From positions 124,076 to 188,075 of IMG/VR virus record IMGVR_UViG_3300024259_001450: a stretch of DNA of 64,000 nucleotides, one strand, 5' to 3'. Positions 11,870 through 62,439 of the stretch are shown in pieces (within the stretch, counting starts at the first letter, position 1; each line of letters opens with the position of its first letter). The DNA comes from a virus. Lineage: Duplodnaviria > Heunggongvirae > Uroviricota > Caudoviricetes. Below the pieces are notes generated by a model. That model made no database searches and was not told the origin of the DNA. It worked only from the letters and a program-made list of their open reading frames with translations. The position numbers and the translations under genes are program-made.

Positions 11870-12568
11870 ATGCCCTACGTAATAATATCTATTGACCCAG
11901 GACTGACCGGTGGTATTGCTATTATTGATGGAAGGAAACGTCCAAAGATAACGAGAATGCCTGTTGTTTCAGTGATGAGAAATAAGAAAAAAAAGAACGA
12001 ATACAATTTAGAGAAAATTGTTGAGATTTGTAAGGAATATATTGATAAGGATGTAGTCTGCGCGGTTGAAAGACAAAGTGTAAGACCTGGCGAGGGTAAT
12101 GTATCAGGTTTTACGACTGGTGTGGGCTATGGATCATTAAAAGGAATAGCCGTTGCTTTAGGCTTTAAACTATTAACAATTGTTCCTGCTGTTTGGAAAA
12201 GGCACCATAAAGAGCTAGATACTGAATTGTTTCTTGAGTTACGAAAAGAAATTAAAGACATTAAACAAAAGAGCAAGGTAACAAAGGATAAAGCCCTAAA
12301 AAAACAGTATAAAACAGATATAGCTAGAGCTAATCGTAAATTAAAATATGAAGCCAAGAAGCAATCAAGGCTATTATGTCAGAAGAAATACTCTAGACTA
12401 AAGAATGAATTAAAATTAGTCAAAGACGATGGAAAATCTGATGCTTTACTAATGGGCTTATATGTGAGGGATAATATCAATGAACTGGTACCAACAAACG
12501 AGAATGAAGAAACAGAGCCAATATTGGCATCGAATGCTAATAAAGCAGCAAAAAAGACGAAAAGATAA
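11870..12568 (+). CDS. RuvC-like Holliday-junction resolvase
   Basis: N-terminal IISIDPGLTGGIAIID matches the RuvC/YqgF motif I. Downstream acidic residue (AVERQ). Lys-rich C-terminus. Confidence 0.5.
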   Translation: MPYVIISIDPGLTGGIAIIDGRKRPKITRMPVVSVMRNKKKKNEYNLEKIVEICKEYIDKDVVCAVERQSVRPGEGNVSGFTTGVGYGSLKGIAVALGFKLLTIVPAVWKRHHKELDTELFLELRKEIKDIKQKSKVTKDKALKKQYKTDIARANRKLKYEAKKQSRLLCQKKYSRLKNELKLVKDDGKSDALLMGLYVRDNINELVPTNENEETEPILASNANKAAKKTKR

Positions 12569-13142
12569 AGTGCCGGGTGGCCTAGCTGACGATAAGTGTA
12601 CTGAAGATTTTGACGAAGAACAGCTTCGTAAAGGTATGCGAGTCGAAATGGAACATACCAACAATAAAGAGTTAGCTAGAGAAATAGCGATGGATCATTT
12701 GGTAGAGCATCCCAAGTATTATGATGAGTTAGAAAAAATGGAAAAAAAGCTAGAGAAAGAAGCAGTTGCTTTTGATTCTTCTTCTTTGTCTACTCTGACA
12801 GATAGAAATCATTTGAATGAGAAAATCAGACGGTTTCAAACCGCTGCCGAAAAGTTGGCATTTTTGAGAAAGGCTATTGCTCAAAATCCACCTGAAGCAC
12901 AAAAAATATTAAAAGAGATCATTGATAGTAAATTACTTTCTTCTTATCCTGAATATCAAGAGATGTTGAAAGTAGCATACTATCCAACGGCAAGAGATAA
13001 CTATGACAAATTTTCAGAGATTTGTGATACCGTTTTAGAGAAAATAACAGCAGAAGTTTCGGAGATGGAAAGCATACGTAAGGATTTTACCAATAATGTT
13101 TTCCCCAAAAAAGTGAGAGAAAGGGCCAATAGGAATGGGTAA
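12480..13142 (+). CDS. Hypothetical protein with MNWY N-terminal tag
   Basis: Starts ATGAACTGGTAC (MNWYQQ…). Overlaps the 3' end of the RuvC-like gene. Confidence 0.35.
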   Translation: MNWYQQTRMKKQSQYWHRMLIKQQKRRKDKVPGGLADDKCTEDFDEEQLRKGMRVEMEHTNNKELAREIAMDHLVEHPKYYDELEKMEKKLEKEAVAFDSSSLSTLTDRNHLNEKIRRFQTAAEKLAFLRKAIAQNPPEAQKILKEIIDSKLLSSYPEYQEMLKVAYYPTARDNYDKFSEICDTVLEKITAEVSEMESIRKDFTNNVFPKKVRERANRNG

Positions 13143-13779
13143 AGAAATTCAGAAAAAGTCGGATGTTGTTCCGGCTTTGCTGGTCAATTACGCAGATGGA
13201 ATAAGCGACGGAACTATTTCAAAAAAGAATTGTAAGCTATGTCAGTCTCCATCTAGGGTGGAAGTGGAAGAAAAGTTTTTGGTAACAAATAGCTTTACTG
13301 CTGCTTCCAGAATTTTGGAGAAAAATGGAGAAGATATAGATTATTCTTCTGTTAGACGACATTTGATGAACCATTTGATTGTTCAGCAACAGCAGATGGC
13401 TGTAAAAGAATATGCTTCTCAGATTTCAAGTATTTTGAAGGAGCATTATAATATAAGGACGCAGATACTAGAACGTATCAAGATCATGAATCGAAAGATG
13501 TATGTTATCGAAGCCATGACCGAAGGACAGACTCTAGATGAAATGCGACGTAGTGCTGATGCCATAAAGAAATTAGTGGACACAATCGCTAGTGCAGAAA
13601 AAGATTTGCAAGCGATTGATCAGACTATGCAGCCTGTACAAATATTGATTAATAATTTCAAAAATATCATTCAAGAAGAGTTGAAGAAAACTAATAGCGA
13701 TGATGTCAAAGAGGTTATTAAGACTATATGGAATAAGTTAATTCATAGTGTAGAAGAGGAAATTGTTCCAAAGGGATAA
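13135..13779 (+). CDS. Hypothetical protein
   Basis: 214-aa ORF overlapping its predecessor by 8 nt. Confidence 0.4.
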   Translation: MGKEIQKKSDVVPALLVNYADGISDGTISKKNCKLCQSPSRVEVEEKFLVTNSFTAASRILEKNGEDIDYSSVRRHLMNHLIVQQQQMAVKEYASQISSILKEHYNIRTQILERIKIMNRKMYVIEAMTEGQTLDEMRRSADAIKKLVDTIASAEKDLQAIDQTMQPVQILINNFKNIIQEELKKTNSDDVKEVIKTIWNKLIHSVEEEIVPKG

Positions 13780-13935
13780 ATTATGGCTAAATTCAATTTG
13801 AAACAGTTAAAAAAAGATATAAAGAAACAGGCTTTAAAGAGAAGAATTGATCAAAGGAAGCCAACTAAAAAGACAGCAAATGCATTCCCTTCTCTGCGTA
13901 AGAAACGAGGCGGATGTGGTTGCGGAGGTTAAAAA

Positions 13936-16900
13936 TGGGAGACGCACAAGCAAAATCTGTTCACGAAAAGATAAATGAAATTCTATGTGATACTTCATTT
14001 AAATATGATCAGTCTGCCTGCTTGTGCGATTTACTTAATTCATTTCGTTATTTATCATATGAATTGATTCAAAATCCTCAGATGCTATTAGAGGATTTGA
14101 TTCAGAACAAAATAGAATCGAACAAGGGATATTACCCATTGGATGTGGTAGAATTGCGGTTGGCGTTGTCACAAGACAGAATTCCGTCTATTAAGCCAAT
14201 GCTATTTTCTTATAAGTTTACACAAAAGTATTTACAAGATTACCCCTTGCTTCTATGTATAGATATTTCTAAAGATGATTATAGCTGCTTTGGCGGATTG
14301 GCTATAGGAGAATATTATTCTTCATTGCATAACTCTTTAAAAAGAATCTATATTTCATCTAAATTGAGCAAGAAAACAATCGAAGATGTACAAAACATTT
14401 TAAAGGAAGAAGATATTAAGTGCGATATGATAGTTGATACTAAAGTTCCAGGTTTGTCTAATCCCAAATTGGCTGCTGCTTTAAATGCGTATATAGTCAA
14501 TATATCTCAGCTAGGCATTGAAGACGAAACTATACACGCCGACACTGAAGAGGAAGCAGTTGCCGATGCTATTAACCGTAAATGGGATCGTGTACAACAA
14601 GCTAAAAATCTTAGATACAGAGAACATAAGTATAGACCGCAAACATGGCTCAAACTTCGTAATACGGAATTTTGGAGCAATATGGTTAGACATGCTCATA
14701 CTGTCAAATCAATTAAAATGGCTCAATTGAATGATAATATCCAACTGTCAGAAATAGAACAAAAGATATTTAATTTCATAAAGATGGTTATAGCAGATTT
14801 GAAACAAAAAGGAATGGATGCAGAATGTAGAGTTGCTGGCGGATGGGTCCGTGATAAGCTAATGGGATATGAGAGTGACGATATTGATATCGCTACCAAT
14901 ATATCTGGTATACAGTTGGCAAACTATATGTCGAAATATGCTCGTGATCATAATATAGACGGCGTGGGGAATGCCCATGAAGTCAGTCTTGAAAAACTAG
15001 TAGATAAAGATGGTGATGAAGGCGAAGAGACATTAAAAGTCGGCGGCATAAATATCTTTGGGCAAAAGATTGAATTTGTGCCAATGAGAAAAGAAATATA
15101 TGATTCAGAAAGCAGAAAGCCAACTATAGTTTTAACTAACAATGTAGAAGACGATGTACTCCGTCGTGATTTGACAATCAACTCATTGTATTACAATATA
15201 TTGACTGGCAAAGTAGAAGATTATGTGGGCGGAAAAGAAGATTTGGAAAAGATGGTGTTGAGGACACCAGCGGGTGCATTAGAAGGATACGATGGGACAT
15301 TGAAAACGTATATTGAAGACCCTCTTAGGATGTTGAGAGTATTGCGTTTCTATACTCGTTATCCTAACGCAAAAATAGATAGTAACATTATCAAGGTTAT
15401 GGAGCAATCTAAAGACCCTAATTCTGAATTCTCGAAAGCGTATAAGGCGAAAGTTGCACCAAGTAGGTCTTCTAAAGAACTCAGAAAAATGATGCAATCT
15501 AAAGACCCAATTCCAGCAAGTAGACTGTTATTGGATTCTAACTTCTATAAATTAGTATTCAATGTAAGTCCTGAATGGTATAACATGGACATGGATCAAC
15601 AAAGTCCTTTTCATAATCTTACATTGAAAGGGCATACTCTTCGCGTAATGGAAGAGTTAAAAAACATAGCAAACGAAATCGGATTAGAAGACAACAGTGA
15701 TGAAAGAGGATTGGTTCTTTTGGCTGGTCTGTTGCACGATTTTGGAAAAATGTCACCTGATATTCGTGCCCCTAAGATTGATAAGAAAACTGGTAAGCCA
15801 GTTACATTCCAAAGGGGAGAAGAAACTGTAGAACGTATGCGTTATATACGTCACGAAGTGGAATCAGCTACATTCTTGTCTCAGACACTCAAAGACATGA
15901 ATTTCAATGAAGAGGAACGAGATTTTGTTGAATTGATTGTTAGAGGTCATATGACACCTACTAATTTGAAGAAATTTGTAGAAATGTATGAAGAGAAATC
16001 AAAATCAGGTAATTCTAGAAAAGCAAAAGATACGATGAATCGTCATTTGGGACAATTTTTACAGAGTGTAGACCAAAGGCTTGATACATTGATGATGGCT
16101 ATAGAAAATGTTAAAAAAGATACCAGAATCAGTGATGAAGATAAAGCCAATAGAATAAAAGACTTAGAAAAATGGATTACACCATATGGTCGTTTGTGGC
16201 AATGGATTATGTATCATCATCGTGCTGATTCAATGGGCAAAAGTGATATGACTGAGCGTGAAATAGAGGAAACTAAGGCGATTAATCAGAAACTTATAAA
16301 TGTAGTAAAAAACTATAGAGATACGCTGGGAACGCTTACCAGAACGCCTGTTGGAGATAAGTTTGGTAATGTAATTCGAGAAATGATGCAAGAACTTGTA
16401 CCAGACTTGCCAAGGGACGCTATGTTGAGCGATTCAAGGATTAAGCGTCCAACGCACTATATCAAGTTTATTATGATGAAAGTGATTGAACAGCAGCAGT
16501 TGGGCTATATAAAGACGCTAGACGATGCTAAAGAATTTATTCGTAAAAGTGGTCGTAACTGGGGTAATATATGGAAACAGCAAATACGGAGACAGCAAAT
16601 GTCAGAATATCATGAAACGAATCTTGCTAATAATTGGTACAAAATGCAAAAGAAAGCGGATGCTTCATCTGCGTCTGAACCATCAGGGTTTGATGGCTAC
16701 GAAGGGCAAAGCCCATTAGAAAGAGTCGATATGCCATATACAATGGAAGATAGAAGTTCTCCTCTTCCTTTCCAGGTTGGAGACAAGGTGAGAGTAAGGC
16801 AAGTCGGAATGATTTATGAGCAAATAGAAGGTCGTGTTGTAGACGCTCAGGAGAATTTGATTGTTATAGATTGGCAGACTGGTAGGTACGCAGGAAAAAC

Positions 16901-16952
16901 TGAGAAGATGACTATGGATAAGGCAACTATAAAGTTGGATGTTATCAAATGA
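13936..16952 (+). CDS. cca: CCA-adding tRNA nucleotidyltransferase (class II head plus HD domain) with long N- and C-terminal extensions
   Basis: Pol-beta-like head motif AGGWVRDKLMGYESDDIDIAT with RRDLTINSLYYN. HD motif LLAGLLHDFGK. GGAGG RBS 8 nt upstream of ATG at 13936. Confidence 0.8.
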
Positions 16953-17302
16953 TGAATTGGTTTAAAAAGGCTGATGGTGAATATAAAGTGTGGTTAGATG
17001 ACTTGAGAGAAATGCCGCCAGAATACGATATTCACGTAAAAACCGCATCTGAAGCTATTGAAGTGTTAAAAACTGGTAAAGTAACACATATGTCCTTCGA
17101 TCACGATTTGGGAGAAGGTAATGGAAGCGGGTATGATGTAGCAAGTTGGATTGAAAGAGCCGCTTATGATAATAGCATACAGCCTATAAAGTTTTCTTTA
17201 CATACACAGAATACTGTTGGAATGGAAAATATGAGTGCCGCGTTATTAAATGCCAATAGATTTTGGCGAGAACATCAAGAAAAGGAACAAGATGTGGTAT
17301 AA
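16952..17302 (+). CDS. CheY-like receiver (REC)-domain-like small protein, MNWF-tagged
   Basis: Starts MNWFKK with TGATG coupling. Conserved REC-like positions (LDDL, FDHDLG, LHTQN). Paralogous to 48491..48868. Confidence 0.4.
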   Translation: MNWFKKADGEYKVWLDDLREMPPEYDIHVKTASEAIEVLKTGKVTHMSFDHDLGEGNGSGYDVASWIERAAYDNSIQPIKFSLHTQNTVGMENMSAALLNANRFWREHQEKEQDVV

Positions 17303-17810
17303 AACAGCTAAAATTGGGTTTACAAAAGAGCAGTTGAATCGTAAACTAAAAGAATTAGTACGTAAAGATTCTTTCTTTAAATTTATGTTTAAAGAATTTG
17401 AAGTTCCTTTTGAAGCAATGGATAACGGCGGTTTAACTTTTATGGCTAAGAAATTAAACGGAAAATTTGCTGAAAGTAATGGCAAATTCATTTTTTTGAA
17501 TGAAAAATTGTTTGAAAAAGATAATTTCTTTGCAAATGGTATACATTTTGTGGTACATGAGTTATTGCACTGGTTAACAAGACAACGAGAGAAAGACTTT
17601 TATTTCACTGATCCAGAAGAAATAGATGCATTCGCTTACGGGATGGCTCACGAAATGCAGAAAGGGAAAGGAAAAGAACATATCGAAAGAGTTTTTTATC
17701 CAATTATTAAAGCCCATTTCAAGAAAAAGAAAAATGCAACAAAAATATTTAATCTAATTTTCAAGCTGGCGTTGCGAAAACAATCGAAAATGAAGAATAA
17801 TTTATCTTAA
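17292..17810 (+). CDS. HExxH zinc-metallopeptidase-like protein, MWYK-tagged
   Basis: Internal start MWYKTAKIG. HELLHW motif. Confidence 0.4.
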   Translation: MWYKTAKIGFTKEQLNRKLKELVRKDSFFKFMFKEFEVPFEAMDNGGLTFMAKKLNGKFAESNGKFIFLNEKLFEKDNFFANGIHFVVHELLHWLTRQREKDFYFTDPEEIDAFAYGMAHEMQKGKGKEHIERVFYPIIKAHFKKKKNATKIFNLIFKLALRKQSKMKNNLS

Positions 17811-17891
17811 AAAGGATATTAGCCGGAAAAATCAAAACTGTAAAATAGTAAGATTATAAGGTAAGTCCCTTAATTATGTGGGGTAAATATT

Positions 17892-18620
17892 ATGGCCAAA
17901 TTGAAACTAAAACGCTATCTTCAAGACCCATCGTACTGTGCTGTTGCCTCTTCAGCTTCGATAGTTAATTATTACAATTCTAAGCTGAATTATGAAAATA
18001 CAAAAACTATAGCAGAAGATTTTGTTGGCGGTGAGGAAGTAATGTCAGAAGGGATGTATACTGGCGAAATAGCCCAATTATTCAATCTATTGGGTTTTAA
18101 GGACGTAACGGTAGTGAGTTCATGTATAGACTACTTAGATTATAGTTGGGCCAAACTTTCCAAATCAGCGTTGATAAAGAATCTTAAAAAAATGTCTAGA
18201 ATCAGAAAAGACATGAAAGAAAATGCTAAATCGATGGTAAGATTTCTTGAAGAATCTGGATACAATAATCAGCTTATTATTGACTATAAATTTGGTGATT
18301 ATATTAGAAAAAGCATTGACAAAGGCATCCCTGTATCTATTTCATTCAAATGGACAGTATTTTTGAGGTTTGAAAAGTACAATGATAAGGGAAAACCTGA
18401 TGCATTTAAGGGAGATGACGAAGAACATGCCGTCGTTATAGTTGGCTATGATGATAAGGGTGTACATGTTGTAGACTCTCATAACAAATTTTACAAATAC
18501 AGATTAAAGAAATATCGCAAAGGAAGATACCACATTTTATGGGAAGATTTAATGTATGTGATTAGCGATGTTGTTATACCGTCTAATTACCAAGAAGACT
18601 TATTAAAATATGAATTTTAA
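17892..18620 (+). CDS. Papain-like cysteine peptidase (C39-like)
   Basis: N-terminal QDPSYCAVAS (Cys). C-terminal HAVVIVGYDDKGVHVVDSH (His), as in C39-like peptidases. Confidence 0.45.
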   Translation: MAKLKLKRYLQDPSYCAVASSASIVNYYNSKLNYENTKTIAEDFVGGEEVMSEGMYTGEIAQLFNLLGFKDVTVVSSCIDYLDYSWAKLSKSALIKNLKKMSRIRKDMKENAKSMVRFLEESGYNNQLIIDYKFGDYIRKSIDKGIPVSISFKWTVFLRFEKYNDKGKPDAFKGDDEEHAVVIVGYDDKGVHVVDSHNKFYKYRLKKYRKGRYHILWEDLMYVISDVVIPSNYQEDLLKYEF

Positions 18621-18622
18621 AT

Positions 18623-19552
18623 ATGAACTGGTACAAAACCTCACAAAGCGATATAATGCCCAAGCGATCACTGGGCAAAACTGGCTATAAGGTAAGCATT
18701 ATATCTTTAGGTGGTCAAGGCTCTCTTGAAACTCAAGGCGATGATGATAACTGTATAGACATCATACGAAGAGCCTACGAATTAGGCATTAATTACTTTG
18801 ACACTTCTCCTATCTATGGCCCATCAGAAGATTTCTATGGTAAAGCACTAGATGGGATTCGTAATGATATATTTTTGGCTACAAAGACAGATAAAAGAGA
18901 TAGAGATGGATCACTCAAAGAGATAGAGAAGTCGCTGAAGAGGCTTAAAACGGATCATGTCGATTTGTGGCAAATACACCATTTAGACACAATGGAAGAG
19001 GTAAACGAAGTTACAGCAAAGGACGGAGCATTACAAGCACTGTTAGAGATGAAAGAACAGGGTGTAGTTAAGTATTGTGGATTTACTGGTCATCAAGACC
19101 CAAAGATACTTATAGAGATGAATAAACGCCATGATTTTGATACCGTATTATGCCCCGTGAATGCAGCAGATTGCCATATGAAACCTCCATTCATAGATAC
19201 TGTTGTTAAGGCTGCAAATAGCAAGAACATTGGTGTTATTGGAATGAAAGTATTTTCACAAGGCTTCATATTCCATCCAAAAGGAATCACAACCTCTTGG
19301 GAACCATTGGCTTATTCACTTTCTCAACCTGTCAGCACTTTGATTGTAGGTCATGATAATGTGGCTCAACTTGAAGAAAATGTTGCTATTGCAAAGAACT
19401 TTAGTCCTCTGAACGAAGAAAAACAAAAGGAAATAGAAGAAAAAACCAAGAACTATATAAGAAGAGCTTCCTTTTTTAGAAGCCGATATGGAGGATATCA
19501 GTCTAGGGACAAATTGAAAGACCCGTTTGTGACTGAAAATGCTAAAGTATGA
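18623..19552 (+). CDS. Aldo/keto reductase, MNWYK-tagged
   Basis: AKR signatures GINYFDTSPIYG, LWQIHHLD, and the YCGFTGH region. Begins MNWYKT. Confidence 0.75.
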   Translation: MNWYKTSQSDIMPKRSLGKTGYKVSIISLGGQGSLETQGDDDNCIDIIRRAYELGINYFDTSPIYGPSEDFYGKALDGIRNDIFLATKTDKRDRDGSLKEIEKSLKRLKTDHVDLWQIHHLDTMEEVNEVTAKDGALQALLEMKEQGVVKYCGFTGHQDPKILIEMNKRHDFDTVLCPVNAADCHMKPPFIDTVVKAANSKNIGVIGMKVFSQGFIFHPKGITTSWEPLAYSLSQPVSTLIVGHDNVAQLEENVAIAKNFSPLNEEKQKEIEEKTKNYIRRASFFRSRYGGYQSRDKLKDPFVTENAKV

Positions 19553-22500
19553 ATTGGTATAAATCAAAAAATATTAAGATAGCTGGTGCTAAAGAAAAAA
19601 TACAGAAGTACCGTATTATAGACTCCGCTATTATCGCTTTCATCCATAAGTATGAGAATCTTATCGATTGGAATATGATTGATTCTCATCTTGCTCTAAC
19701 GGATAAAGATGCAGAATTTCACATTAATAAAGCAATTAATTCTAAACCTCTTACAGCATTATTTAACAAAATTAGATTTGGGCCTGAGTCAATTGCTCTA
19801 AAGGGAAGTAATTATTATCAAGTTGATCCTGAAAGTGAAGAAACGATTGAGATCAATAAAGAAAAACTTAGAGTTTTCCAGTTATGGTGGGACTTGATGA
19901 CTCATAAGTGGAGTAACCCTGCATTCGCATTTTTGATGTTAAAGCCAATTTTTGATTCTTCTGGTCCGAACAAAAAAGCCCCGCCTCCAGAAGTGGATGC
20001 AGAGGTTGTCAATCGTACTTATAAAGAATTAATTCAAAATCCTCAAATGAATACATTCAAAATTTATATGAAGGATTTGAAAAATGCCACATTGAGGAAA
20101 AAAGAATTTTTAGATCATATAGGCTTTGAAGAGTCAATGACTGGATGGTTACGCGTTAAAAGCAAAACAAATGATCCTGATCATTTTGAATATAACTTAG
20201 AAATTCTTAAATCTTTAAGTAGGGAAAATAACTGGTGTACCGCAAGAAATGTTGCAAATAGTTATCTATCAGAAGGCGATTTTTGGTTATATATGGTGGA
20301 CGGAACAGCTAAAGTAGCAATTAGATTGACCGGGAACAATTCTGTGATAGAAATTCGAGGTAAAAACAATCAAATTCCTAAAGACTATTGGGAAGAAGTT
20401 ATTTCGTTTTTGCACAAAAGCAATTTTGAATATCAGCATAATATCTCCTATAAAAAATTATTAGAGACTTATGGGTTCAACCAAGATTTAAGAGAGATGG
20501 ATGAAACAGGATTTGTAAATTTGATCGACACTATTGAATCTAAACCTCTCACTTATGAAAAATTAAGTGCAGAAAACAAAAAGAATTTTCCAGTATTATT
20601 AGAAGCTGCCATCAAGGGATGGACAAATCCACTCGCATTAGATATACAGAATTTTAGAACCACTCTTAAAGACAAAAGAGAAAAGGAAAAACAAAATCTG
20701 CCTGTTGATACACGCACACTAAGCAGATTAGATGATTATAAGTCAGAAGTGATTTATCGGTATAGAAGAATGCCTGTAGATATGCGGGAAAGATTATCTG
20801 ATATAATTATAGAAGGCATAAAGGATGTTTATGCATATTGTCTGACAGTAGATGATCCTTCTTCGATTTGCGATGTACCTAAAGAAATTGCAGCAAAAAT
20901 TAGCAAAAAAGAGTGGGTAAATGCCATTTACAGACTTTTTAAAGACTCTGGGGTATATGCTTTAGAATTTCATATTCCAGAAAATGTTATGAATATAGTT
21001 GATTCCAGAAAACTGAGAAATATAGTATTACGTTTATTTCTTAAAGACCCAACAGTTTGGGAACATGCTCAACAACAATGGATTGATATGATGGGAGATC
21101 AAGAGAGAAAAGTCATTGCTGACGAATTGATAAAGACACAAATTGAAAAAACTTATAGCACCACTGGTACTGCTCCTTTGATTCCAGAAGATTTAGAACA
21201 ATATATACCATTCGAAAAAATTGTAGAAGCATGGACAAAATTCGTTAGGGATTATGCTGTTCGATATGTAGAAGCCTCGATACCAGAACATATTAAATCA
21301 CAAATACCAATTGACGAGGTTGTTAGTGGATATAAAGATATGATAAAATATAATCCTGGAATTTATCTTCAAGTGCCACAAAAACTACAACCCATGATTG
21401 ATCAAGGATGGCTTCGTAGAGCAGTTTATCGATATTTCAAAATCAATATTTTCTCTATTTTCCGCAACCAAAGTGTTAGCGCTTTAGAAATGATGGAGAA
21501 ATTTTTCCCAAAAGAGTTTATAGGAAAAATGTATACACATTTCTTCAAAAAGAATCCAAGTAGTTATAACAAAATACCAGATCATTATAGAGAATATGTT
21601 CCAGAAGATGTTTTGATTGATTCATTTTCCGAAACGGTTTTGAGGCATAAAGATTCTTTAATGAAAGCATTAGAGGGGGATCAGAATATAAGTAATTTTG
21701 TGCGTTATATCAAACGTGATTATCGTGATATACCTGATAAAGTTAAAGAAAAAGTACCTAAAGAAGTTATAGAATTGTTACATTTTGCCATAAACAGCGA
21801 ATTGGCAGCAGACCCATATTCATATAAATCTCTTTCAGCAGCACATAAGGAAGTTATTACGCCTGAAACTATGGAAAGAATTAAAGAATATTGGAGAAAT
21901 TCAACCAGCAATATTACACACGCTTTTACTCAGTGTCCTCTTGAAGTCCAAAAACAACTTTTTGAAGAAAAGGGGCAATTCTATAACGATGTGGTCGCAT
22001 CTTCTTTAAGAGTAGTAACAATGAGGCCGTATATTATTTTACAGACTAGCTGGATGCATGAACCTCTTAGGGGAATGATACCGCCATATGTTTATGAACA
22101 TTTATTAAAAGAGCGACTGCCGGATTTGGGTGAAGCACTTGCAAAAGCTTTTTATGAATATAGAACTTACACCGAATATTACGCCAAGATGCCTGATATA
22201 GTTAGAAATGCTGTTCCAGAAAAAGTAAAAAAAGATATAATAATTCCTTTTTATCAAAGGCGTTATGATGCTTATGGAAGAAATGCTCTTATTCCAAAAG
22301 ATATTGTTCCATTTATAGAGCGGGTAGAACCTAAAGCTTCTGCTAACCATTGGTATAAGTATGCTCAGAATCTACCTAATGAAATAGCAAGACTTTTATT
22401 AGAGGCAGAAAAAGGATATGTCGCACCAGAAAGATTACAAAATGTATCATCGTATTTTGCCGATGAATTTACTCTAAGACAGGCTGTGTCTAAGGGTTCT

Positions 22501-22680
22501 CAAATGGCTCAAATGTCTCAGAAATATGCATTGAGTCCTAAACAGCAAGAAACCATCCAGCAATTAATGCAAGCATTTTTGGGAAAGCGTCAAGAAATGA
22601 ATGAAAATAGCGATTATCATATCGAACCAGAAACCAAAGAAAACATTTCAGAAATTCCTCAAGAACAACCAGTCGAATAG
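19549..22680 (+). CDS. Large hypothetical protein (1043 aa), MNWYK-tagged
   Basis: Uninterrupted 3.1-kb ORF starting MNWYKS with ATGA coupling. No recognisable catalytic motif. Confidence 0.5.
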   Translation: MNWYKSKNIKIAGAKEKIQKYRIIDSAIIAFIHKYENLIDWNMIDSHLALTDKDAEFHINKAINSKPLTALFNKIRFGPESIALKGSNYYQVDPESEETIEINKEKLRVFQLWWDLMTHKWSNPAFAFLMLKPIFDSSGPNKKAPPPEVDAEVVNRTYKELIQNPQMNTFKIYMKDLKNATLRKKEFLDHIGFEESMTGWLRVKSKTNDPDHFEYNLEILKSLSRENNWCTARNVANSYLSEGDFWLYMVDGTAKVAIRLTGNNSVIEIRGKNNQIPKDYWEEVISFLHKSNFEYQHNISYKKLLETYGFNQDLREMDETGFVNLIDTIESKPLTYEKLSAENKKNFPVLLEAAIKGWTNPLALDIQNFRTTLKDKREKEKQNLPVDTRTLSRLDDYKSEVIYRYRRMPVDMRERLSDIIIEGIKDVYAYCLTVDDPSSICDVPKEIAAKISKKEWVNAIYRLFKDSGVYALEFHIPENVMNIVDSRKLRNIVLRLFLKDPTVWEHAQQQWIDMMGDQERKVIADELIKTQIEKTYSTTGTAPLIPEDLEQYIPFEKIVEAWTKFVRDYAVRYVEASIPEHIKSQIPIDEVVSGYKDMIKYNPGIYLQVPQKLQPMIDQGWLRRAVYRYFKINIFSIFRNQSVSALEMMEKFFPKEFIGKMYTHFFKKNPSSYNKIPDHYREYVPEDVLIDSFSETVLRHKDSLMKALEGDQNISNFVRYIKRDYRDIPDKVKEKVPKEVIELLHFAINSELAADPYSYKSLSAAHKEVITPETMERIKEYWRNSTSNITHAFTQCPLEVQKQLFEEKGQFYNDVVASSLRVVTMRPYIILQTSWMHEPLRGMIPPYVYEHLLKERLPDLGEALAKAFYEYRTYTEYYAKMPDIVRNAVPEKVKKDIIIPFYQRRYDAYGRNALIPKDIVPFIERVEPKASANHWYKYAQNLPNEIARLLLEAEKGYVAPERLQNVSSYFADEFTLRQAVSKGSQMAQMSQKYALSPKQQETIQQLMQAFLGKRQEMNENSDYHIEPETKENISEIPQEQPVE

Positions 22681-22720
22681 TCTCTAACCTTCTATAATGA
22701 ATAGACGCAGGAGATATATC

Positions 22721-23260
22721 ATGACGCAGAAATACTACAAATATCCACGAACTTTTCATTTCCTTTGGAGTGAGAATCTTCAGAATGATGATCGTCTGCT
22801 TCCGTCGATGGATGATTTTATAGGTAAAGAAATCGTTATCACGGAAAAAATGGATGGTGAGTGCCTTGACGAAAATGTTTTGATATCAACAGACCAAGGA
22901 GAAATTTCTATTGGAGAAAAATGTTTTTGTAATGATAGAGAAAGCTTTGTCAAATATATTGTTCTTAGGTTGAGATTCCACAATACAAAAGAAAAATTTA
23001 GGGAACTTCGAAAAAGAGCAGAAGATATCGTAGATGAAGTAATATTTTTGTGGAAAAAGAAGGAAAAAGAACGTAAAGAGGGAAATACTGAAAAAGCGGT
23101 TAAAGTAGGCGGATATAAACCCGGCATTAATGAAAAGCCACTTACAGAGGGTTACCAGCCAAAAGCTTCCGCTTCTCAAGAGATCATTCCTCCTTCTCCA
23201 CCAAGAAAACGTATTAAAGTTAATCCGCAGATGTGTCCTCATTGCGGTAAGGAGATATAA
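22721..23260 (+). CDS. Rnl2-family-like (KYPxxxH…EKxDG) motif protein, short, possibly a remnant
   Basis: MTQKYYKYPRTFHF…ITEKMDGE resembles the RNA-ligase (Rnl2/PF09414) N-terminus with nucleotidyltransferase motif I KxDG. AGGAGAT RBS. The protein is only about 180 aa. Confidence 0.3.
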   Translation: MTQKYYKYPRTFHFLWSENLQNDDRLLPSMDDFIGKEIVITEKMDGECLDENVLISTDQGEISIGEKCFCNDRESFVKYIVLRLRFHNTKEKFRELRKRAEDIVDEVIFLWKKKEKERKEGNTEKAVKVGGYKPGINEKPLTEGYQPKASASQEIIPPSPPRKRIKVNPQMCPHCGKEI

Positions 23261-26979: not shown

Positions 26980-27564
26980 TTAGTATGGTAAACTTCTTAA
27001 GAAAGGTTGTACAGCAGAATCTTGCTGTTGTCTAGTTTGTTGTCCGAACTGTTCTGCTGGGCCTTCCTGTACGCTTGTAAACGGTTGTCCAGACTGGATG
27101 GCACTACCATAGTCTCTGACATGGGCGCTTTCATGTGCGGCTGTTTCTAGCAATTCTCCCAATATCCAAGAGCCTACTTGTTGGATAAGGCTGTTGACGA
27201 TATCTGGGTCAGTTTCTATTCCGTCCATTTGTGCTGTAGGAGGTAGTGAATGTTTGGCATTATCAAATACCTTTTTGACATCGACATGGATTACGCCAGG
27301 TTCATGGCTGATTGCTAACCCTTGAGCAGAAGCATCGGCAATTGGGCTAGTGTCTATTTTTTTGACATTATTTTCTATAAGAATAGGTGCTATACGAGTT
27401 TTTACTTCATCTAGTAGTTGATAGGCAGAAATCGTGACTCCTGAACCTGGTATTGCGATATTCTCACTTTGACCGGTGCCAGTGATCTCGATTGCTTTGG
27501 CTTGTTCCATCAATTGTTGATATTCAAGCCCTATATTTTGTTGTGCTTTTATAAACCAGTTCAT
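26980..27564 (-). CDS. HExxH-motif protein, MNWF-tagged
   Basis: Begins MNWFIKAQQ. TAAHESAHVRD motif. Confidence 0.4.
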   Translation of the reverse strand: MNWFIKAQQNIGLEYQQLMEQAKAIEITGTGQSENIAIPGSGVTISAYQLLDEVKTRIAPILIENNVKKIDTSPIADASAQGLAISHEPGVIHVDVKKVFDNAKHSLPPTAQMDGIETDPDIVNSLIQQVGSWILGELLETAAHESAHVRDYGSAIQSGQPFTSVQEGPAEQFGQQTRQQQDSAVQPFLRSLPY

Positions 27565-39987: not shown

Positions 39988-40609
39988 AAGTTTAGATAAC
40001 CGTCGTGACAATCGTACCGAAAAACAATTTAAAAAAGACATTTCAGCGTGGGAAGCAAGAGAAGACATTTGGGCAGAAACAATGAAGGCCGAAATGGAGC
40101 AGTGCGGCCACAATGTAGAAGTTGAGCATTACGGAATAGGTGATGGCACTGGCAAGATGATTGAAAATGCGACGGTAAAAGATTTAAGTCGTCCAGATAA
40201 AAAGTTTGTTATTGATGGCGAAACTCATTTAGTGGAAATCAAAACATGTGATATGGGAAAAGATTATCCTGATCTTCCATTTATCACAATTAAAACTAAT
40301 TCAATGAAAAGTGCCATTAAGGAAGAAAACGGTAAAGTTGTAATTTGTGATCGTGAATGGTGGATGATACTTCGTAAAGATGTTTTAGAAAAATTGTTAG
40401 AAGTATATCCTCATAAACTGTATCACGGTTTTTCTCCAAATAAGAAGGCGATTAGAGTGCCTGGCAAAGATTTGGCCGGATGGCTTTCTAACAAAAGAGA
40501 AGATGGGAAGATAGAAATTAGACGATGGAATAAAGACGCTGAAAAAGTTATCAAAAAACATGCTGACAAATTGTTTAGAAAAGCAAAATATACACGCAAA
40601 GGAAAATAA
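39980..40609 (+). CDS. Possible PD-(D/E)xK nuclease-fold protein
   Basis: VIDGETHLVEIKT resembles a D…ExK motif. Weak. Confidence 0.3.
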   Translation: MSKSLDNRRDNRTEKQFKKDISAWEAREDIWAETMKAEMEQCGHNVEVEHYGIGDGTGKMIENATVKDLSRPDKKFVIDGETHLVEIKTCDMGKDYPDLPFITIKTNSMKSAIKEENGKVVICDREWWMILRKDVLEKLLEVYPHKLYHGFSPNKKAIRVPGKDLAGWLSNKREDGKIEIRRWNKDAEKVIKKHADKLFRKAKYTRKGK

Positions 40610-41675
40610 AATGAATAGAAGAAATTTCTTAAAAACTTTAGCAGTTGCTAGTGCGAGTGGGGCATTGCCTATCAAATTATTAGCATCTAACAACAAGCCA
40701 CTTCATTTAAATCAAGAAGAAAAAGAATTTGTTGCCAATCAAGTACACCATTTTATTTGTAGACATGCTGAACATTATTGGATAACAAGAATGTGTTTAC
40801 TTGTAGATGAAATTCCACCAAAGAAAAAACCTATTTATGAACGAGACTCTTATAGCAAAGGAGATTTTGCCGTTTATATGAGAACTGATTTCCCTATGTT
40901 TTTCTCACCTGTATGCCCAGCTAGGCCAAGGGAAATACAGCAACGTTGGAGATTGCCATCAAGTAATATATATCCAAGTTTTTATTGGCAAAACAGAAAA
41001 TGTATTACGGTTCCCACTTATGATATCGAAGGTACTTCTTTGCAATTCACTGAAAAAGAAATTAAAGGATTCAAAAATAAAACATTCACAAAGAGTGCCA
41101 ACGAAAAGGTGAAAAAACTTTCGGAGCATTTAGAGAAAACAGAACTGAATGATTTGATTTATCTGTTGGATTTTAACTGTTTATCAGAGATTGAAGATAA
41201 TTATTGGATGAATCCATTAAAACATTGTAAGCGTTCTCGTAATTTACAAACACATATATTTGTTTGTGATAAAAAGGAGGATTTGCACGATGCCGTCAAT
41301 GATGCTTTCGCGTTTATAGAGTGCCAAGAAGATTTGGTGGTTAATATGATTATTAATCCAAATACAATGGAAAAAATAAAGCACTTATTTACTGATGATG
41401 AACTTGAGATAAATGAATATAGGAACTCGTGGCATTTTATAAATCCTTTATACGGCTATATGTGGCTTTGCAGGATTTTAGTTCATGAGGCTGTTCCAGA
41501 AAAGTCCATATATATTATGGGTTCTCCTGATCGTTGTGGTGTATTGCCCCTAGAAAAAGATTTGCAAACACACTATAATGATGATAATACATGCACAACA
41601 TCGGAGAAAATAGGAATGTCTATTGTATATCCCAATTCTGTTATGAAAATTGAACTAGATGACTCTATAATATAA
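40610..41675 (+). CDS. Tat-signal-peptide protein (predicted exported)
   Basis: MNRRNFLKTLAVASASGALPIKLLA: twin-arginine RRxFLK plus hydrophobic h-region plus A-x-A-like site. Confidence 0.45.
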
Positions 41676-45439: not shown

Positions 45440-46396
45440 ATGCATACGGAAGAATTGAAGTTAGATTTTGATGACGTTTTAATACGTCCCAAACGTAGTA
45501 AGGTTCCCTCCCGATCACATATCGAATTAGAAAGAACATATACTTTCAAAAATAGCGGAAAAGAATGGACTGGTTTACCAATTATTGCCGCGAATATGGA
45601 CACCACCGGAACATTTGCCATGGCTCAAGCATTAGCAGAATACAAAATGCTCACGGCATTACATAAGCATTATTCAATCGAAGAACTGACAGATTTTTTT
45701 GCCGACAATCAAAACATATGGGATAATGTCTTTTACACTGTTGGCATTGGCGATGATGACTTTGAAAAATTGAAAGAAGTAGCGGTTGCACTATATGTAA
45801 AAATAAATGATTTTGACACAAGCAATCAACCTCCAATGTGGAGAACTAGATGCTATAAAGAAATGAAGAAAACATTTCCAAGAATGCTTTGTATTGATGT
45901 TGCAAACGGATATACGGAATATTTTTTGGAACGAGTTGAAAAGATAAGAAAAGAATTTCCGAATAGCACTATAATGGCTGGCAATGTAGTGACTTATGAA
46001 ATGGCAGAACAATTGATCCTTTCCGGTGTAGATATCGTAAAATGCGGGATTGGATCAGGAAGTGTGTGTACGACTCGTATAAAGACGGGTTGTTTTGTTG
46101 CTGGGACTAAAGTTAATACTAAAAAAGGATTAATAAATATTGAAGATATCAAAGTGGGTAATTATGTATTAACTCACGACGGAACTTATCAAAAAGTTAA
46201 GAAAAATAATAGACTAAAAGAAAAAGAAGATTTATTAGAGATAAACGGTGTGATATGCACAAAAGATCATGAGTTTTATGTAATCGATAAAAACAAAGCT
46301 GATTTAGTTAATGAAAACAATTTACACAATTTTGCATATTGGGTAGAAGCTGTTAATTTAACTGATCATCATTTTCTCATAGAAATAGAGGAATAA
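45440..46396 (+). CDS. guaC: GMP reductase N-extein fused to split-intein N-fragment (IntN, 101 aa)
   Basis: N-terminus [13 protein letters not shown]…[13 protein letters not shown]…[13 protein letters not shown] matches GuaC up to the catalytic loop. It then continues [23 protein letters not shown]…LIEIEE and stops. Confidence 0.8.
46091..46393 (+). mobile_element. Split intein N-fragment
   Basis: Begins with Cys directly after the extein KTG. Hint blocks A/B present (LTHDGTY). Terminated by an in-frame TAA. Confidence 0.7.
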
Positions 46397-58907: not shown

Positions 58908-58980
58908 GGGCCAGTAGCTTAATTGGGAAAGCACTACACTTGCAATGTGGAGGATATGGGTTCGATTCCCATCTGTGTCC
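58908..58980 (+). tRNA. tRNA-like gene, anticodon UGC (Ala) by canonical numbering; acceptor stem imperfect
   Basis: D-stem GCTT/AAGC with GG in the loop. Anticodon stem CTACA/TGTGG, loop cTTGCaa. T-arm ATGGG-TTCGATT-CCCAT. Acceptor GGGCCAG/CTGTGTC pairs at 5 of 7 positions (3:70 G·G, 4:69 C·T). TATAAT 17 nt upstream. Confidence 0.45.
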
Positions 58981-60493: not shown

Positions 60494-60525
60494 ATCATCG
60501 ATATAATAACGAAAGGAGAAAAACG

Positions 60526-61581: not shown

Positions 61582-61595
61582 TGGAGAAAATAAAT

Positions 61596-61789: not shown

Positions 61790-62206
61790 ATGGCTAATCG
61801 AGCAACTTGCTTGGACTGTGTAAGAAAACATTTAGGACAAGCATATGTCCTTTTAAGTGAATACGCTGACGATACAGAAGCCTTTGAAGAATATTTCTAC
61901 TATGCCATGGGCCATTTGGCAGAGGCTTGTGACGAATGCAAAAACGCATATCCCTTTGTAGGGCAAGTGCTTAGGGCACATCGACGCAAAATGATGGAAG
62001 ATGATGATTATTGGATTGATTTCAAACCGTTGATTCGATGGATAAATCGTTTGGCATTTTTGGAGAACGATATTGAGTTCCCAGATGGCGAATTAGAACA
62101 ATACATTGAAGAGTCTATAGAGCCTGTAAAGGATTTACTTGGAATTGAAGAAGAAAAACCGACGAAAACAAAAAAGAGCAGCAAGCAAAAAAATGAATTA
62201 CCATGA
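61790..62206 (+). CDS. Hypothetical protein
   Basis: GGAGG RBS 10 nt upstream of ATG at 61790. Confidence 0.35.
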   Translation: MANRATCLDCVRKHLGQAYVLLSEYADDTEAFEEYFYYAMGHLAEACDECKNAYPFVGQVLRAHRRKMMEDDDYWIDFKPLIRWINRLAFLENDIEFPDGELEQYIEESIEPVKDLLGIEEEKPTKTKKSSKQKNELP

Positions 62207-62207
62207 C

Positions 62208-62219
62208 CTATAATGTAGT
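62208..62219 (+). promoter_or_regulatory. Conserved promoter-like motif CTATAATGTAGT
   Basis: Identical 12-mer 17 nt upstream of ATG at 62236. Confidence 0.35.
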
Positions 62220-62235
62220 AACAGAAGGAGATATT

Positions 62236-62439
62236 ATGAATTGGGAATTACTTAGTGAGAAGCAAGGTCGTATCGAAGGACAGATTATTATTTTTTGTGC
62301 AAAAGAAGATAGAAAGACCGATTGGATTGTCAATCGTGTTAAGATGTACGAAGACGATGGGTATAAAGTTCTTGTAAAGAACGCATTTTCAAAGAAGTCT
62401 CCTCATTACACTTCTGATAGAAAGACTGAGAAAAACTAA
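62236..62439 (+). CDS. Small hypothetical protein, MNW-tagged
   Basis: Starts ATGAATTGGGAA (MNWELL). Preceded by CTATAATGTAGT and a GGAG RBS. Confidence 0.35.
   Translation: MNWELLSEKQGRIEGQIIIFCAKEDRKTDWIVNRVKMYEDDGYKVLVKNAFSKKSPHYTSDRKTEKN

What the first reader, a model, noticed from the sequence alone, without database searches (positions are those of the whole stretch)
12480..62439. Conserved N-terminal MNW(Y/F)K tag on seven or more unrelated proteins (nucleotide motif ATGAAYTGGTWYAAA)
Proteins starting at 12480 (MNWYQQ), 16952 (MNWFKK), 17292 (MWYKT), 18623 (MNWYKT), 19549 (MNWYKS), 26980 on the minus strand (MNWFIK) and 62236 (MNWELL) share this N-terminus. Their remaining sequences are unrelated: an aldo-keto reductase, two HExxH proteins, a REC-like protein, a 1043-aa protein and others. 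Four are consecutive (16952-22680) and flank a papain/C39-like peptidase gene. Two starts are identical over 12 nt (ATGAACTGGTAC). The pattern resembles capsid-targeting or ejection-signal peptides of internal virion proteins in T4 and jumbo phages. It could also be a processing site for the ClpP-like or C39-like protease, or a conserved translation-initiation context.
Basis: seen in the sequence. Interest (0 to 1): 0.7.

Follow-up and report, generated by a model that had tools for sequence, protein, structure and literature searches.

The report
Shared N-terminal tag on phage accessory proteins
Many unrelated accessory enzymes of this large uncultivated phage and its relatives start with the same eight amino acids (Met-Asn-Trp-Tyr-Lys-Lys-Ala-Gln), an apparently undescribed address-label-like tag that may direct them all to one shared partner, perhaps the phage head.

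Summary
In the window, five genes start M-N-W-[YF] (12480, 16952, 18623, 19549, 27564 minus strand) against 0.006 expected by chance. One gene starts MWYK (17292). Two large proteins carry internal copies (16632, 22345). MNWELL at 62236 is not a member.

The same motif, consensus MNWYKKAQ, heads about 375 otherwise unrelated proteins on 150 viral or metagenomic contigs with GC from 24 to 63%. They often form uninterrupted arrays of up to 16 genes. The motif is almost absent from 185,579 cellular genomes, and I found no mention of it in the literature.

It is a peptide-level signal. Synonymous sites vary, its distance from the Met varies, it lies outside the Pfam domains, and AlphaFold2 models it as disordered. 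One protein family conserves copies at both ends. Within a genome, however, the roughly 20-nt tag DNA is homogenised across unrelated genes.

The tagged proteins include ADP-ribosyltransferases, GNATs, 2H/Acb1 phosphoesterases, PNK-like kinases, lysozymes and peptidases. This overlaps the domain set of injected "polyvalent" proteins.

Best reading: a portable docking peptide, closest to the T4 capsid-targeting sequence. Packaging is unproven (about 0.3). Rivals are a degron, another shared partner, or a pure gene-junction module.

The parts
12480..13142 (+). DUF5661 protein (220 aa); tag MNWYQQTR at 12480-12503
   Evidence: The Pfam DUF5661 match begins at residue 45. A GAGGG SD lies 9 nt upstream. 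DUF5661 homologues in 8 other loci are all tagged. Public gene calls used 12534.
13914..16952 (+). CCA-adding (PolyA_pol head) + HD protein, 1012 aa, with an internal in-frame copy NNWYKMQKK at 16629-16655, 106 aa before the C-terminus
16952..17302 (+). cREC_REC receiver-like protein (116 aa); tag MNWFKKAD at 16952-16975
   Evidence: The Pfam domain starts at residue 11. Homologues either carry the tag or start directly at strand beta-1. In the AlphaFold2 model, residues 1-7 have pLDDT below 50 and no secondary structure, while the domain scores above 94.
17292..17810 (+). HExxH (HELLH) protein, 172 aa; variant tag MWYKTAKI at 17292-17315
   Evidence: An AAGGA SD lies upstream. The alternative start at 17250 would place the motif 15 residues in.
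17892..18620 (+). Untagged Peptidase_C39_2 (papain-like) gene embedded in the tagged run
   Evidence: E 1.6e-14. BLAST finds no homologue of it in the other tag-bearing loci.
18623..19552 (+). Aldo-keto reductase (309 aa); tag MNWYKTSQ at 18623-18646
   Evidence: The family profiles begin at residues 14-33.
19549..22680 (+). 1043-aa protein of unknown function; tag MNWYKSKN at 19549-19572 and a second copy NHWYKYAQ at 22345-22368
   Evidence: All five homologues found have a tag-like N-terminus. The three other full-length ones (L001/P0002, L036, L105; 29-34% identical) also carry NWY[KR]K 8-12 residues from their C-terminus. The window protein's second copy lies 110 aa from its end.
26980..27564 (-). 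194-aa HExxH (HESAH) protein; tag MNWFIKAQ at 27564-27541
   Evidence: It is 41% identical over 185 aa to a protein in L093.
62236..62439 (+). MNWELL start; not a member of the motif
   Evidence: It shares only M-N-W and lacks the Y/F-K core that is more than 94% conserved elsewhere.

Best explanation
The motif is a portable peptide tag. Its core is [N/S]-W-[Y/F]-K and its consensus is M-N-W-Y-K-K-A-Q. It is encoded by the first ~21-24 nt of the gene and appended as a flexible extension to otherwise unrelated accessory proteins of a lineage of large, uncultivated phages.

Shown:
- It is far beyond chance and virus-specific.
- It is selected at the amino-acid level.
- It lies outside the folded domains.
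- It marks nearly every gene in compact, co-oriented arrays.
- It also occurs, conserved, at domain junctions and at C-termini.
- Within a genome the tag DNA is homogenised across unrelated genes.

Inferred:
- It works as a short linear docking or address signal that brings many different enzymes to one shared partner.
- The repeated ~20-nt tag DNA also acts as the joint at which gene cassettes are exchanged.

My most likely specific mechanism is by analogy only. As with the T4 capsid-targeting sequence, the tag would bind the assembling head interior. An arsenal of counter-defence, host-takeover and RNA-repair enzymes would then be packaged and injected with the DNA.

Layered confidence: real, selected peptide tag about 0.9; docking or address signal about 0.6; capsid loading specifically about 0.3.
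For: Chance is excluded in the window.

Generality: 47 of 111 distinct matches to the MNWYKK-coding 18-mer in viral contigs sit at the start of an ORF of at least 60 aa. A scrambled-codon control gives 3 of 79 (Fisher p 3e-10), and multi-hit loci number 6 versus 0. Positions 7-8 were not in the search pattern, yet they are conserved as A/S/I and Q/K. A search for NWYKKAQ without a start codon in metagenomes gave 145 distinct sites. Of these, 91 are preceded by ATG, 8 by GTG or TTG, and about 15 have a Met 1-3 residues upstream. Only 2 hits appear in 185,579 cellular species genomes. Both are MAG contigs, and one carries a five-gene array.

Arrays: 143 of 157 genes inside arrays are tagged. The gene bodies are unrelated: 2 of 91 pairs are similar in L343, and 0 of 21, 0 of 55 and 0 of 45 in L030, L114 and L346.

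Peptide level: AAT/AAC, TAT/TAC and AAA/AAG all occur. The TAC deficit disappears once tags whose TAT|AAA supplies the upstream gene's stop are removed. Substitutions are conservative (Y/F, K/R, N/S). The offset from the Met varies (MWYK, MMNWFK, MTNWYK, MKTKSWYKK). Pfam domains begin 2-13 residues after the tag. cREC homologues exist with and without it. AlphaFold2 leaves residues 1-7 disordered. The 1043-aa family keeps copies at both termini at about 30% identity. A second tag, MK[IV][IY]K[IT]A[QS], replaces it on one family.

DNA level: the Asn codon is homogeneous within genomes (13 of 13 AAC in L343, 6 of 6 in L030; heterogeneity chi-square p 4e-7). There are ~20 identical nt at each start, with no conserved upstream sequence.

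For packaging: tagged domains include ART-PolyVal (9), GNAT (about 12), 2H/Acb1, AAA_33 kinases, lysozyme/SLT, peptidases, PcfJ and HicA. This repertoire overlaps that of polyvalent proteins predicted to be injected (PMC5512222). In 11 loci, tagged genes abut a phage-G-type major head protein and a protease-fusion gene. In T4, a 10-residue N-terminal CTS is the only feature shared by diverse anti-defence internal proteins, and it suffices to load foreign proteins (PMC3012670; PMC9026906).
Against: There are no virion or expression data.

No protease-type cleavage motif follows the tag: [LIV]xE occurs in 21.6% of tagged proteins against 23% of neighbours, and GG in 6%. T4 CTSs are cleaved off.

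Tagged proteins are acidic (median pI 5.9, or 5.4 without the tag). T4 internal proteins are basic.

In the window, the tagged genes sit among RNA-repair and nucleotide-metabolism genes, not head genes.

The link to head genes (11 of about 150 loci) is not clearly above what random sampling of 50-500-kb genomes would give.

One tagged family is a lysozyme with a transmembrane helix right after the tag. That fits a signal-anchored endolysin at least as well as an ejected protein.

Bacillus phage G, the nearest cultured relative by head protein (55% identity), has no tag in its first 200 kb.

No untagged candidate receptor recurs next to the arrays.

The within-genome nucleotide homogeneity shows that DNA-level processes also shape the tag.
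Confidence: 0.4

Rival explanations
1. Recognition tag for an AAA+ unfoldase or protease (a degron). The tag would make a whole class of phage proteins short-lived or remodelled at a set time, through host ClpX/ClpC working with host or phage ClpP.
For: The window phage encodes ClpP (988-1659), and phage G encodes ClpP- and ClpX-like genes. From memory (Flynn et al. 2003), ClpX N-motif 1 is polar-hydrophobic-hydrophobic-basic-hydrophobic near the N-terminus. N-W-Y-K-I/A fits this. The C-terminal copies (..NWYKKITI*) loosely resemble the MuA-type basic C-motif. The tag is disordered and only 2-6 residues from the first strand of the domain, as expected for a pulling handle. Toxic cargo such as HicA, ARTs and lysozymes would benefit from timed removal.
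Against: ClpP was not found near tags in any other locus, though the loci are short. Internal copies at domain junctions are hard to use as terminal degrons. There is no obvious reason to destabilise repair enzymes, kinases or an aldo-keto reductase. The resemblance to ClpX motifs is recalled from memory, not tested.
Confidence: 0.15
2. Docking to some other shared partner, with the same logic as the best explanation but a different destination. Candidates are the phage sliding clamp, a chaperone (phage DnaJ), the membrane, or a replication/repair factory.
For: The motif works at N-terminal, internal and C-terminal positions, as clamp-binding and similar linear motifs do. The window encodes a probable beta-clamp (1662-2951; PDB beta-clamp E 1e-3), clamp-loader subunits and DnaJ. 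The aromatic-plus-lysine composition and the tag's position just before a transmembrane helix in the lysozyme family suit a membrane-proximal site. The window's tagged genes form an RNA-repair neighbourhood: Ro60, NIF3, CCA-adding enzyme, cREC, PNKP and an RNA-ligase-like fragment.
Against: The tag does not resemble known clamp-binding peptides (QL[SD]LF, or the T4 C-terminal hydrophobic-acidic tails). No candidate partner could be tested for co-occurrence because most loci are under 15 kb.
Confidence: 0.2
3. A gene-junction and recombination module with no peptide function. The ~20-nt start sequence would be kept because it ends the upstream gene in either alternative frame, restarts translation, and provides homology for cassette exchange. 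The peptide would be a by-product.
For: The tag DNA contains TGA in frame +1 (ATGA) and TAA in frame +2 (TAT|AAA). Of 366 tagged starts, 77 and 52 use these as the upstream gene's stop. 78% of tagged starts lie within 20 nt of the upstream ORF's end. The tag DNA is identical over ~20 nt across unrelated genes of one genome, and the Asn codon is homogenised. Relic tags and tandem tags exist. In-frame read-through would create internal copies automatically. T4-type phages are known to shuffle small genes at conserved flanking sequences (recalled from memory).
Against: Between genomes, synonymous sites differ while the amino acids stay fixed. TAC is at its background frequency when the TAA is not used as a stop. 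Trp is invariant, although any A-starting second codon plus xxT-AAx would meet the stop-codon needs. The offset from the Met varies. C-terminal copies are conserved in the three other full-length orthologues of the 1043-aa family, at about 30% identity. In the window itself, three copies use TAC and lack the TAA. Ordinary SD-like sequences precede many tags.
Confidence: 0.15
4. A cleavage site for the C39-like or HExxH peptidases. The arrays would descend from polyproteins, and the motif would mark the junctions where domains are released.
For: Internal copies lie at domain boundaries of large proteins. Papain-like and metallopeptidase genes occur in or next to arrays. Polyvalent proteins are proposed to be cut by embedded peptidases (PMC5512222).
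Against: About 80% of copies are at the extreme N-terminus of separately translated genes, where no cleavage is needed. No peptidase family co-occurs consistently. No GG or other site is conserved around the motif, and the residue before it is variable.
Confidence: 0.05

Closest known systems
Capsid targeting sequence (CTS) of T4 internal proteins (IPI, IPII, IPIII, Alt)
   Same: Both are short (~8-10 residue) N-terminal peptides that are the only feature shared by otherwise diverse, fast-evolving accessory or anti-defence proteins. The T4 CTS is sufficient to load foreign proteins of any size into the head (PMC3012670, PMC9026906). The tagged set here includes an ADP-ribosyltransferase class, as T4 Alt does.
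   Different: There is no sequence similarity to MKTYQEFIAE. No protease site follows the tag. Copies also occur at domain junctions and at C-termini. There are up to 16 tagged genes per array, against about four in T4. The tagged proteins are acidic, not basic. Packaging is untested, and the phages have phage-G-type heads (where known), not T4-type.
Polyvalent proteins of phages and conjugative elements (Iyer, Burroughs, Anand, de Souza, Aravind 2017)
   Same: The domain repertoires overlap: ART-PolyVal, 2H phosphoesterases, GNAT, zincin-like and papain-like peptidases, and PcfJ-like domains. Polyvalent proteins are predicted to act in the earliest phase of infection after delivery with the DNA.
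   Different: Polyvalent proteins join 2-15 domains in one chain and rely on MuF, portal or other carrier domains. Here the domains are mostly separate small genes (median 156 aa), each with its own octapeptide. The paper does not mention such a motif.
Cargo-loading peptides of encapsulins and N-terminal packaging signals of contractile injection systems (recalled from memory)
   Same: These are short terminal peptides that suffice to load unrelated cargo into an HK97-fold shell or a tail-like particle. The cargo genes lie next to the shell genes.
   Different: Encapsulin signals are usually C-terminal and bind a defined pocket of the shell protein. Nothing comparable could be tested here.
Double-glycine bacteriocin leaders cut by C39 peptidases
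   Same: These are conserved N-terminal leaders on unrelated peptides, with a papain-like C39 peptidase encoded nearby.
   Different: Those leaders are 15-30 residues long and end in GG. The peptidase is fused to an ABC exporter. Neither feature is present here.

Membership tests
T4-type capsid targeting sequence | Short N-terminal peptide shared by otherwise unrelated proteins of one phage | tested here: met
T4-type capsid targeting sequence | The peptide is an appendage outside the folded protein | tested here: met
   Pfam domain boundaries, tagged and untagged cREC homologues, and AlphaFold2 pLDDT below 50 for residues 1-7.
T4-type capsid targeting sequence | Followed by a prohead-protease cleavage site (T4: L/I-x-E) so that the tag is removed | tested here: not met
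   [LIV]xE at residues 7-25 occurs in 21.6% of 375 tagged proteins against 23% of untagged neighbours. No column beyond position 8 is conserved.
T4-type capsid targeting sequence | Sequence resembles MKTYQEFIAE | tested here: not met
   Direct comparison: the consensus here is MNWYKKAQ.
T4-type capsid targeting sequence | Tagged proteins are present in virions and are ejected | not testable with these tools
   No cultured representative was found. The 1043-aa and Y.DIGH families have no match in 50,697 GenBank phage records.
T4-type capsid targeting sequence | Genetic linkage to head-morphogenesis genes | tested here: inconclusive
   11 of about 150 loci have a phage-G-type head protein and protease-fusion gene next to tagged genes. 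This is not clearly above chance, and there is no such linkage in the window.
ClpX N-terminal recognition motif (N-motif 1; recalled from memory) | Polar-hydrophobic-hydrophobic-basic-hydrophobic pattern close to a free N-terminus | tested here: inconclusive
   N-W-Y-K fits the first four positions. The fifth is K in 62% of tags and I/L/A in a minority. Conserved internal copies do not fit.
ClpX N-terminal recognition motif (N-motif 1; recalled from memory) | ClpXP-dependent degradation | not testable with these tools
   Needs an experiment.
Double-glycine leader with C39 peptidase | Leader of 15-30 residues ending in GG/GA/GS | tested here: not met
   The conserved part is 8 residues long, and GG occurs within residues 7-25 in 6% of tagged proteins.
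Double-glycine leader with C39 peptidase | C39 domain fused to an ABC exporter | tested here: not met
   The protein at window 17892-18620 is a stand-alone 242-aa Peptidase_C39_2 protein.
Sec/Tat signal peptide | Hydrophobic core after a basic N-region | tested here: not met
   About 1% of tagged proteins have a transmembrane-like segment after the tag, mainly the lysozyme family. Most go straight into a soluble domain.
Polyvalent proteins | Two or more unrelated effector domains in one polypeptide | tested here: not met
   Median tagged protein length is 156 aa, mostly with one domain or none recognisable. A minority are large fusions with internal tags.
Polyvalent proteins | Characteristic effector domain repertoire | tested here: met
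   ART-PolyVal, 2H/2H-SAK/Acb1, GNAT, peptidases and PcfJ.
Translation-initiation or downstream-box type RNA element | Conservation at nucleotide rather than amino-acid level, fixed to the start codon | tested here: not met
   Synonymous sites vary. The TAC deficit is explained by out-of-frame stop use. The offset from the Met varies, and in-frame non-initiating copies are conserved. Caveat: nucleotides are homogeneous within a genome.

The most novel reading that the evidence does not exclude
Large uncultivated phages use a plug-and-play addressing system. It has at least two interchangeable N-terminal octapeptides (MNWYKKAQ and MK[IV][IY]K[IT]A[QS]). Their coding DNA doubles as the recombination joint of gene-cassette arrays. 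Any captured enzyme placed behind the joint would automatically be sent to a common destination, either the head interior for co-injection or a dedicated intracellular site. This would give these phages an expandable, exchangeable arsenal of dozens of counter-defence and repair enzymes.
Probability: 0.25. Interest if true: 0.9.

Novelty: new variant of a known kind. Interest (0 to 1): 0.78.

Why it matters
If the tag is an address label, it is a simple sequence marker for mining hundreds of phage accessory proteins. More than two thirds of the tagged proteins have no Pfam match. These would be proteins that huge phages deploy together, probably against host defences and RNA damage.

It would also be a natural eight-residue handle for loading arbitrary cargo, as the T4 CTS has been used. 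That could extend the approach to phages with much larger heads.

The coupling of a peptide signal with a homogenised ~20-nt DNA joint offers a concrete, testable model of how large phages build and exchange accessory-gene arrays.

Finally, the motif defines a widespread phage group (GC 24-63%, many metagenomes) whose signature tagged gene families have no match among sequenced isolates.

Tried and rejected
- Chance or codon bias is rejected by shuffles, by a scrambled-codon control scan and by Poisson expectation.
- An extended -10 or late-promoter reading of TGGTATAAA was considered. It is rejected because TAT is not favoured over TAC once tags supplying the upstream stop codon are removed, and a start site there would lie inside the gene.
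- Whole-gene duplication as the source of the identical tag DNA is rejected. Gene bodies within arrays are unrelated, except for the L070 paralogues.
- A search for a recurrent untagged receptor gene by clustering all ORFs of about 250 loci returned only the head module, homing endonucleases and methylases.
- The search for a cultured carrier failed. Phage G has no tag in 200 kb. Brevibacillus phage Jenst has an ART homologue without the tag. The 735-kb and 462-kb uncultured phages have DUF5661 but no tag nearby. The 1043-aa and Y.DIGH families have no match in GenBank phages.
- Several pattern hits in T4-like marine phage loci proved to be out-of-frame chance matches repeated across near-identical contigs.
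- Literature searches for MNWYK, NWYKK and DUF5661 found nothing relevant.
- PDB sequence searches for the DUF5661 and 1043-aa proteins found nothing.
- The search for related loci with the 1043-aa protein found nothing in viral contigs.
Full report
**The observation**

The window is 36% GC phage DNA. The same sequence occurs on metagenomic contigs of up to 188 kb. Reading the starts directly confirms M-N-W-[Y/F] at 12480, 16952, 18623, 19549 and, on the minus strand, 27564. The variant MWYK is at 17292. MNWELL at 62236 shares only three residues and lacks the conserved core.

Each frame opens only 3-12 codons upstream, so the N-termini are well defined. ATGAAYTGG occurs 7 times against 2.1 expected. 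From the window's own amino-acid composition, 0.006 of 93 genes should start MNW[YF], and five do (Poisson p about 7e-14).

Two further in-frame copies lie inside large proteins, at 16632 and 22345, each about 106-110 residues before the C-terminus.

The tagged proteins are:
- a DUF5661 protein;
- a cREC_REC receiver-like protein;
- an HExxH protein;
- an aldo-keto reductase;
- a 1043-aa protein with no family match;
- a second HExxH protein.

A CCA-adding/HD enzyme carries one of the internal copies. An untagged C39-like peptidase sits among them. In every case the recognised domain starts after the tag. The neighbourhood is an RNA-repair and replication region: Ro60/TROVE, NIF3, a RuvC-like resolvase, PNKP, an RNA-ligase-like fragment, ClpP, DnaJ and clamp-loader subunits.

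**It is conserved and widespread**

The only distant homologue of the 1043-aa protein with a usable contig is P0002 (34% identity; contig L001, 27% GC). It begins MNWYKK and ends ...QNWYKKIYGINIL. Its contig has six consecutive genes starting M[NS]W[YF]K, plus internal copies.

Of 111 distinct matches, 47 sit at the start of an ORF of at least 60 aa. A control with the same codons in scrambled order gave 3 of 79 (Fisher p 3e-10). Six loci had multiple hits, against none for the control.

Positions 7 and 8 were not part of the pattern, yet they are conserved (A/S/I and Q/K). The consensus is therefore MNWYKKAQ, and nothing is conserved beyond position 8.

Of 145 distinct sites, 91 are preceded by ATG, 8 by GTG or TTG, and about 15 have a Met 1-3 residues upstream. 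About 22 are internal to long ORFs and a few are C-terminal.

The 24-mer with ATG occurs only twice in one genome each of 185,579 bacterial and archaeal species. Both hits are MAG contigs, and one carries a five-gene tagged array.

In total I collected about 375 tagged proteins on 150 loci, with GC from 24 to 63%. No paper in the searchable library mentions the motif or DUF5661. The signature families have no match in 50,697 GenBank phage records.

**Anatomy of the arrays**

Tagged genes come in co-oriented, tightly packed runs: 16 in L070, 14 in L343, 11 in L114 and 7 in L030. Within runs of five or more tags, 143 of 157 genes are tagged. Most of the rest carry near-variants such as MSWYN, MTWYG or MKVIKTAS.

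The gene bodies are unrelated to one another. Similar pairs number 2 of 91 in L343, and none in L030, L114, L346 or the window. L070 is the exception, a paralogue expansion.

Pfam recognises fewer than a third of the tagged proteins. Those it does recognise are:
- GNAT acetyltransferases;
- ART-PolyVal ADP-ribosyltransferases;
- AAA_33 (PNK-like) kinases;
- 2H/LigT/Acb1 phosphoesterases;
- lysozymes and SLT transglycosylases;
- HTH proteins;
- DUF5661;
- PcfJ;
- UvrD helicases;
- HicA;
- trypsin-like and papain-like peptidases.

**Peptide or nucleotide signal?**

Several results point to selection on the peptide:
- All synonymous codons of Asn, Tyr and Lys occur.
- Substitutions are conservative.
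- The distance from the initiator Met varies from 0 to 7 residues.
- cREC homologues of 45-73% identity carry the tag, while others start exactly at strand beta-1.
- AlphaFold2 folds the cREC domain confidently (pLDDT above 94) but leaves residues 1-7 unstructured with pLDDT below 50.
- All five homologues of the 1043-aa family have a tag-like N-terminus. The three other full-length ones also have NWY[KR]K 8-12 residues from the C-terminus, and the window protein's second copy lies 110 aa from its end, although the family is only about 30% identical.
- A second tag, MK[IV][IY]K[IT]A[QS], occupies the same position in some loci and replaces MNWYKK on orthologues of one 2H-like family. No gene of phage G (200 kb) or of the window starts that way.

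Nucleotide-level effects also exist. Within a genome the Asn codon is uniform (13 of 13 AAC in L343 against 31% background; 6 of 6 in L030; heterogeneity p 4e-7). About 20 nt are identical at each start, while upstream sequence is not conserved. Because the gene bodies are unrelated, this is homogenisation of the tag DNA itself.

The tag also carries stop codons in both other frames: ATGA, and TAA from TAT|AAA. These end the upstream gene in 77 and 52 of 366 cases. The overall deficit of TAC disappears when those cases are removed. That argues against any further RNA or promoter constraint.

**What it most likely does**

The motif is disordered and position-tolerant, and it sits on dozens of unrelated enzymes of one virus. 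That pattern is best explained as a docking or address peptide for a single partner.

The closest precedent is the T4 capsid-targeting sequence. It is a 10-residue N-terminal peptide and the only feature shared by diverse anti-defence internal proteins. It is sufficient to load beta-galactosidase, GFP or a nuclease into heads (PMC3012670; PMC9026906).

The kinds of proteins tagged here overlap the repertoire of "polyvalent proteins", which are predicted to be injected with the DNA (PMC5512222). In 11 loci the tagged genes abut a phage-G-type major head protein (55% identical to phage G gp27) and a giant protease-fusion gene.

I therefore rank capsid loading first among the specific mechanisms, at only about 0.3. 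The reasons for caution are:
- No cleavage motif follows the tag.
- The tagged proteins are acidic.
- One tagged family is a membrane-anchored lysozyme.
- The window's tagged genes are not near head genes.
- The head-gene linkage is not clearly above chance.
- Phage G shows no tag in its first 200 kb.
- No receptor could be identified.

The rivals are:
- an unfoldase/protease recognition tag (the window encodes ClpP, and the motif loosely fits ClpX N-motif 1 as I recall it);
- docking to another hub (a probable phage beta-clamp at 1662-2951; DnaJ; the membrane);
- a pure junction/recombination module;
- a peptidase site.

The junction features and the homogenised DNA are real. I read them as a second property of the same element: it is also the joint at which cassettes are stitched together and exchanged.

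**Verdict**

The finding is real, highly non-random, general, and apparently undescribed. Its function is unproven. It is best filed as a new variant of the capsid-targeting or cargo-address peptide idea, with an unusual coupling to cassette-array architecture.

Noticed in passing
window 10283-10370 (-) and 10377-10445 (-): Two tandem sub-threshold Rfam matches to RF01656 (nematode stem-bulge RNAs, which I recall to be Y-RNA homologues): 33 and 29 bits against a gathering score of 38. They lie in the 870-nt gap just upstream of the Ro60/TROVE gene (8194-9843, minus strand). This may be a phage-encoded Y-RNA pair.
   Followed up: partly
window 40560-41675 (+); L106 2-439, 996-1268, 1265-1582 (-): A 371-aa protein has a twin-arginine (Tat-type) N-terminus, MNRRNFLK... 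(Pfam TAT_signal). Its body aligns weakly (21% identity, E 4e-7) with the phage-G-type major head protein. The same MNRRSF[LIF]K start heads three consecutive ORFs in L106, two of which are pieces of that head protein, next to a C39-like peptidase. This is another shared N-terminal label and is unexplained.
   Followed up: partly
L044, L049, L076, L096, L276, L306, L349, L370 and others: A second shared N-terminus, MK[IV][IY]K[IT]A[QS] (e.g. MKIYKIAQ, MKVIKTAS), occurs on small unrelated genes, some inside the head-gene module. It replaces MNWYKK on orthologues of one family. 0 of 337 genes in phage G (200 kb) plus the window start this way.
   Followed up: partly
window 1662-2951 (+): A 429-aa protein lies between ClpP and the clamp-loader delta subunit. 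It has no Pfam match but marginal similarity to bacterial DNA polymerase III beta clamps in the PDB (E 1e-3, residues 33-149). It is probably the phage sliding clamp.
   Followed up: partly
window 22697-23260 (+); 41689-43713; 45440-46396: The 187-aa ORF at 22697 starts like an RNA ligase (…ITEKMDGE, the lysine nucleotidyl-transfer motif) and then continues from a Cys into unrelated sequence. It may be a split or intein-interrupted gene. Inteins are recorded in the Dam methylase and IMPDH genes further on.
   Followed up: no
L070 387-9065; L001 10114-10506; L039 7884-8270; L088; L075; L141: A roughly 125-aa family with the pattern tag - 10-25 residues - Y.DIGH ... LW ... GR[FY] ... F.N..I..F has no Pfam or PHROG match. 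It occurs as 11 or more tandem paralogues in L070. It also occurs as the C-terminal domain of 600-700-aa proteins, where it accounts for many of the internal tags.
   Followed up: partly
window 58908-58980 (+): A single tRNA-Cys (GCA) gene.
   Followed up: yes
L030, L079, L096, L069 and 8 other loci: LAGLIDADG homing-endonuclease genes recur between the phage-G-type head-protein gene and the tagged arrays (12 loci). GIY-YIG and TnpB-like genes also recur near arrays. Whether any of them cuts the conserved tag DNA was not examined.
   Followed up: no
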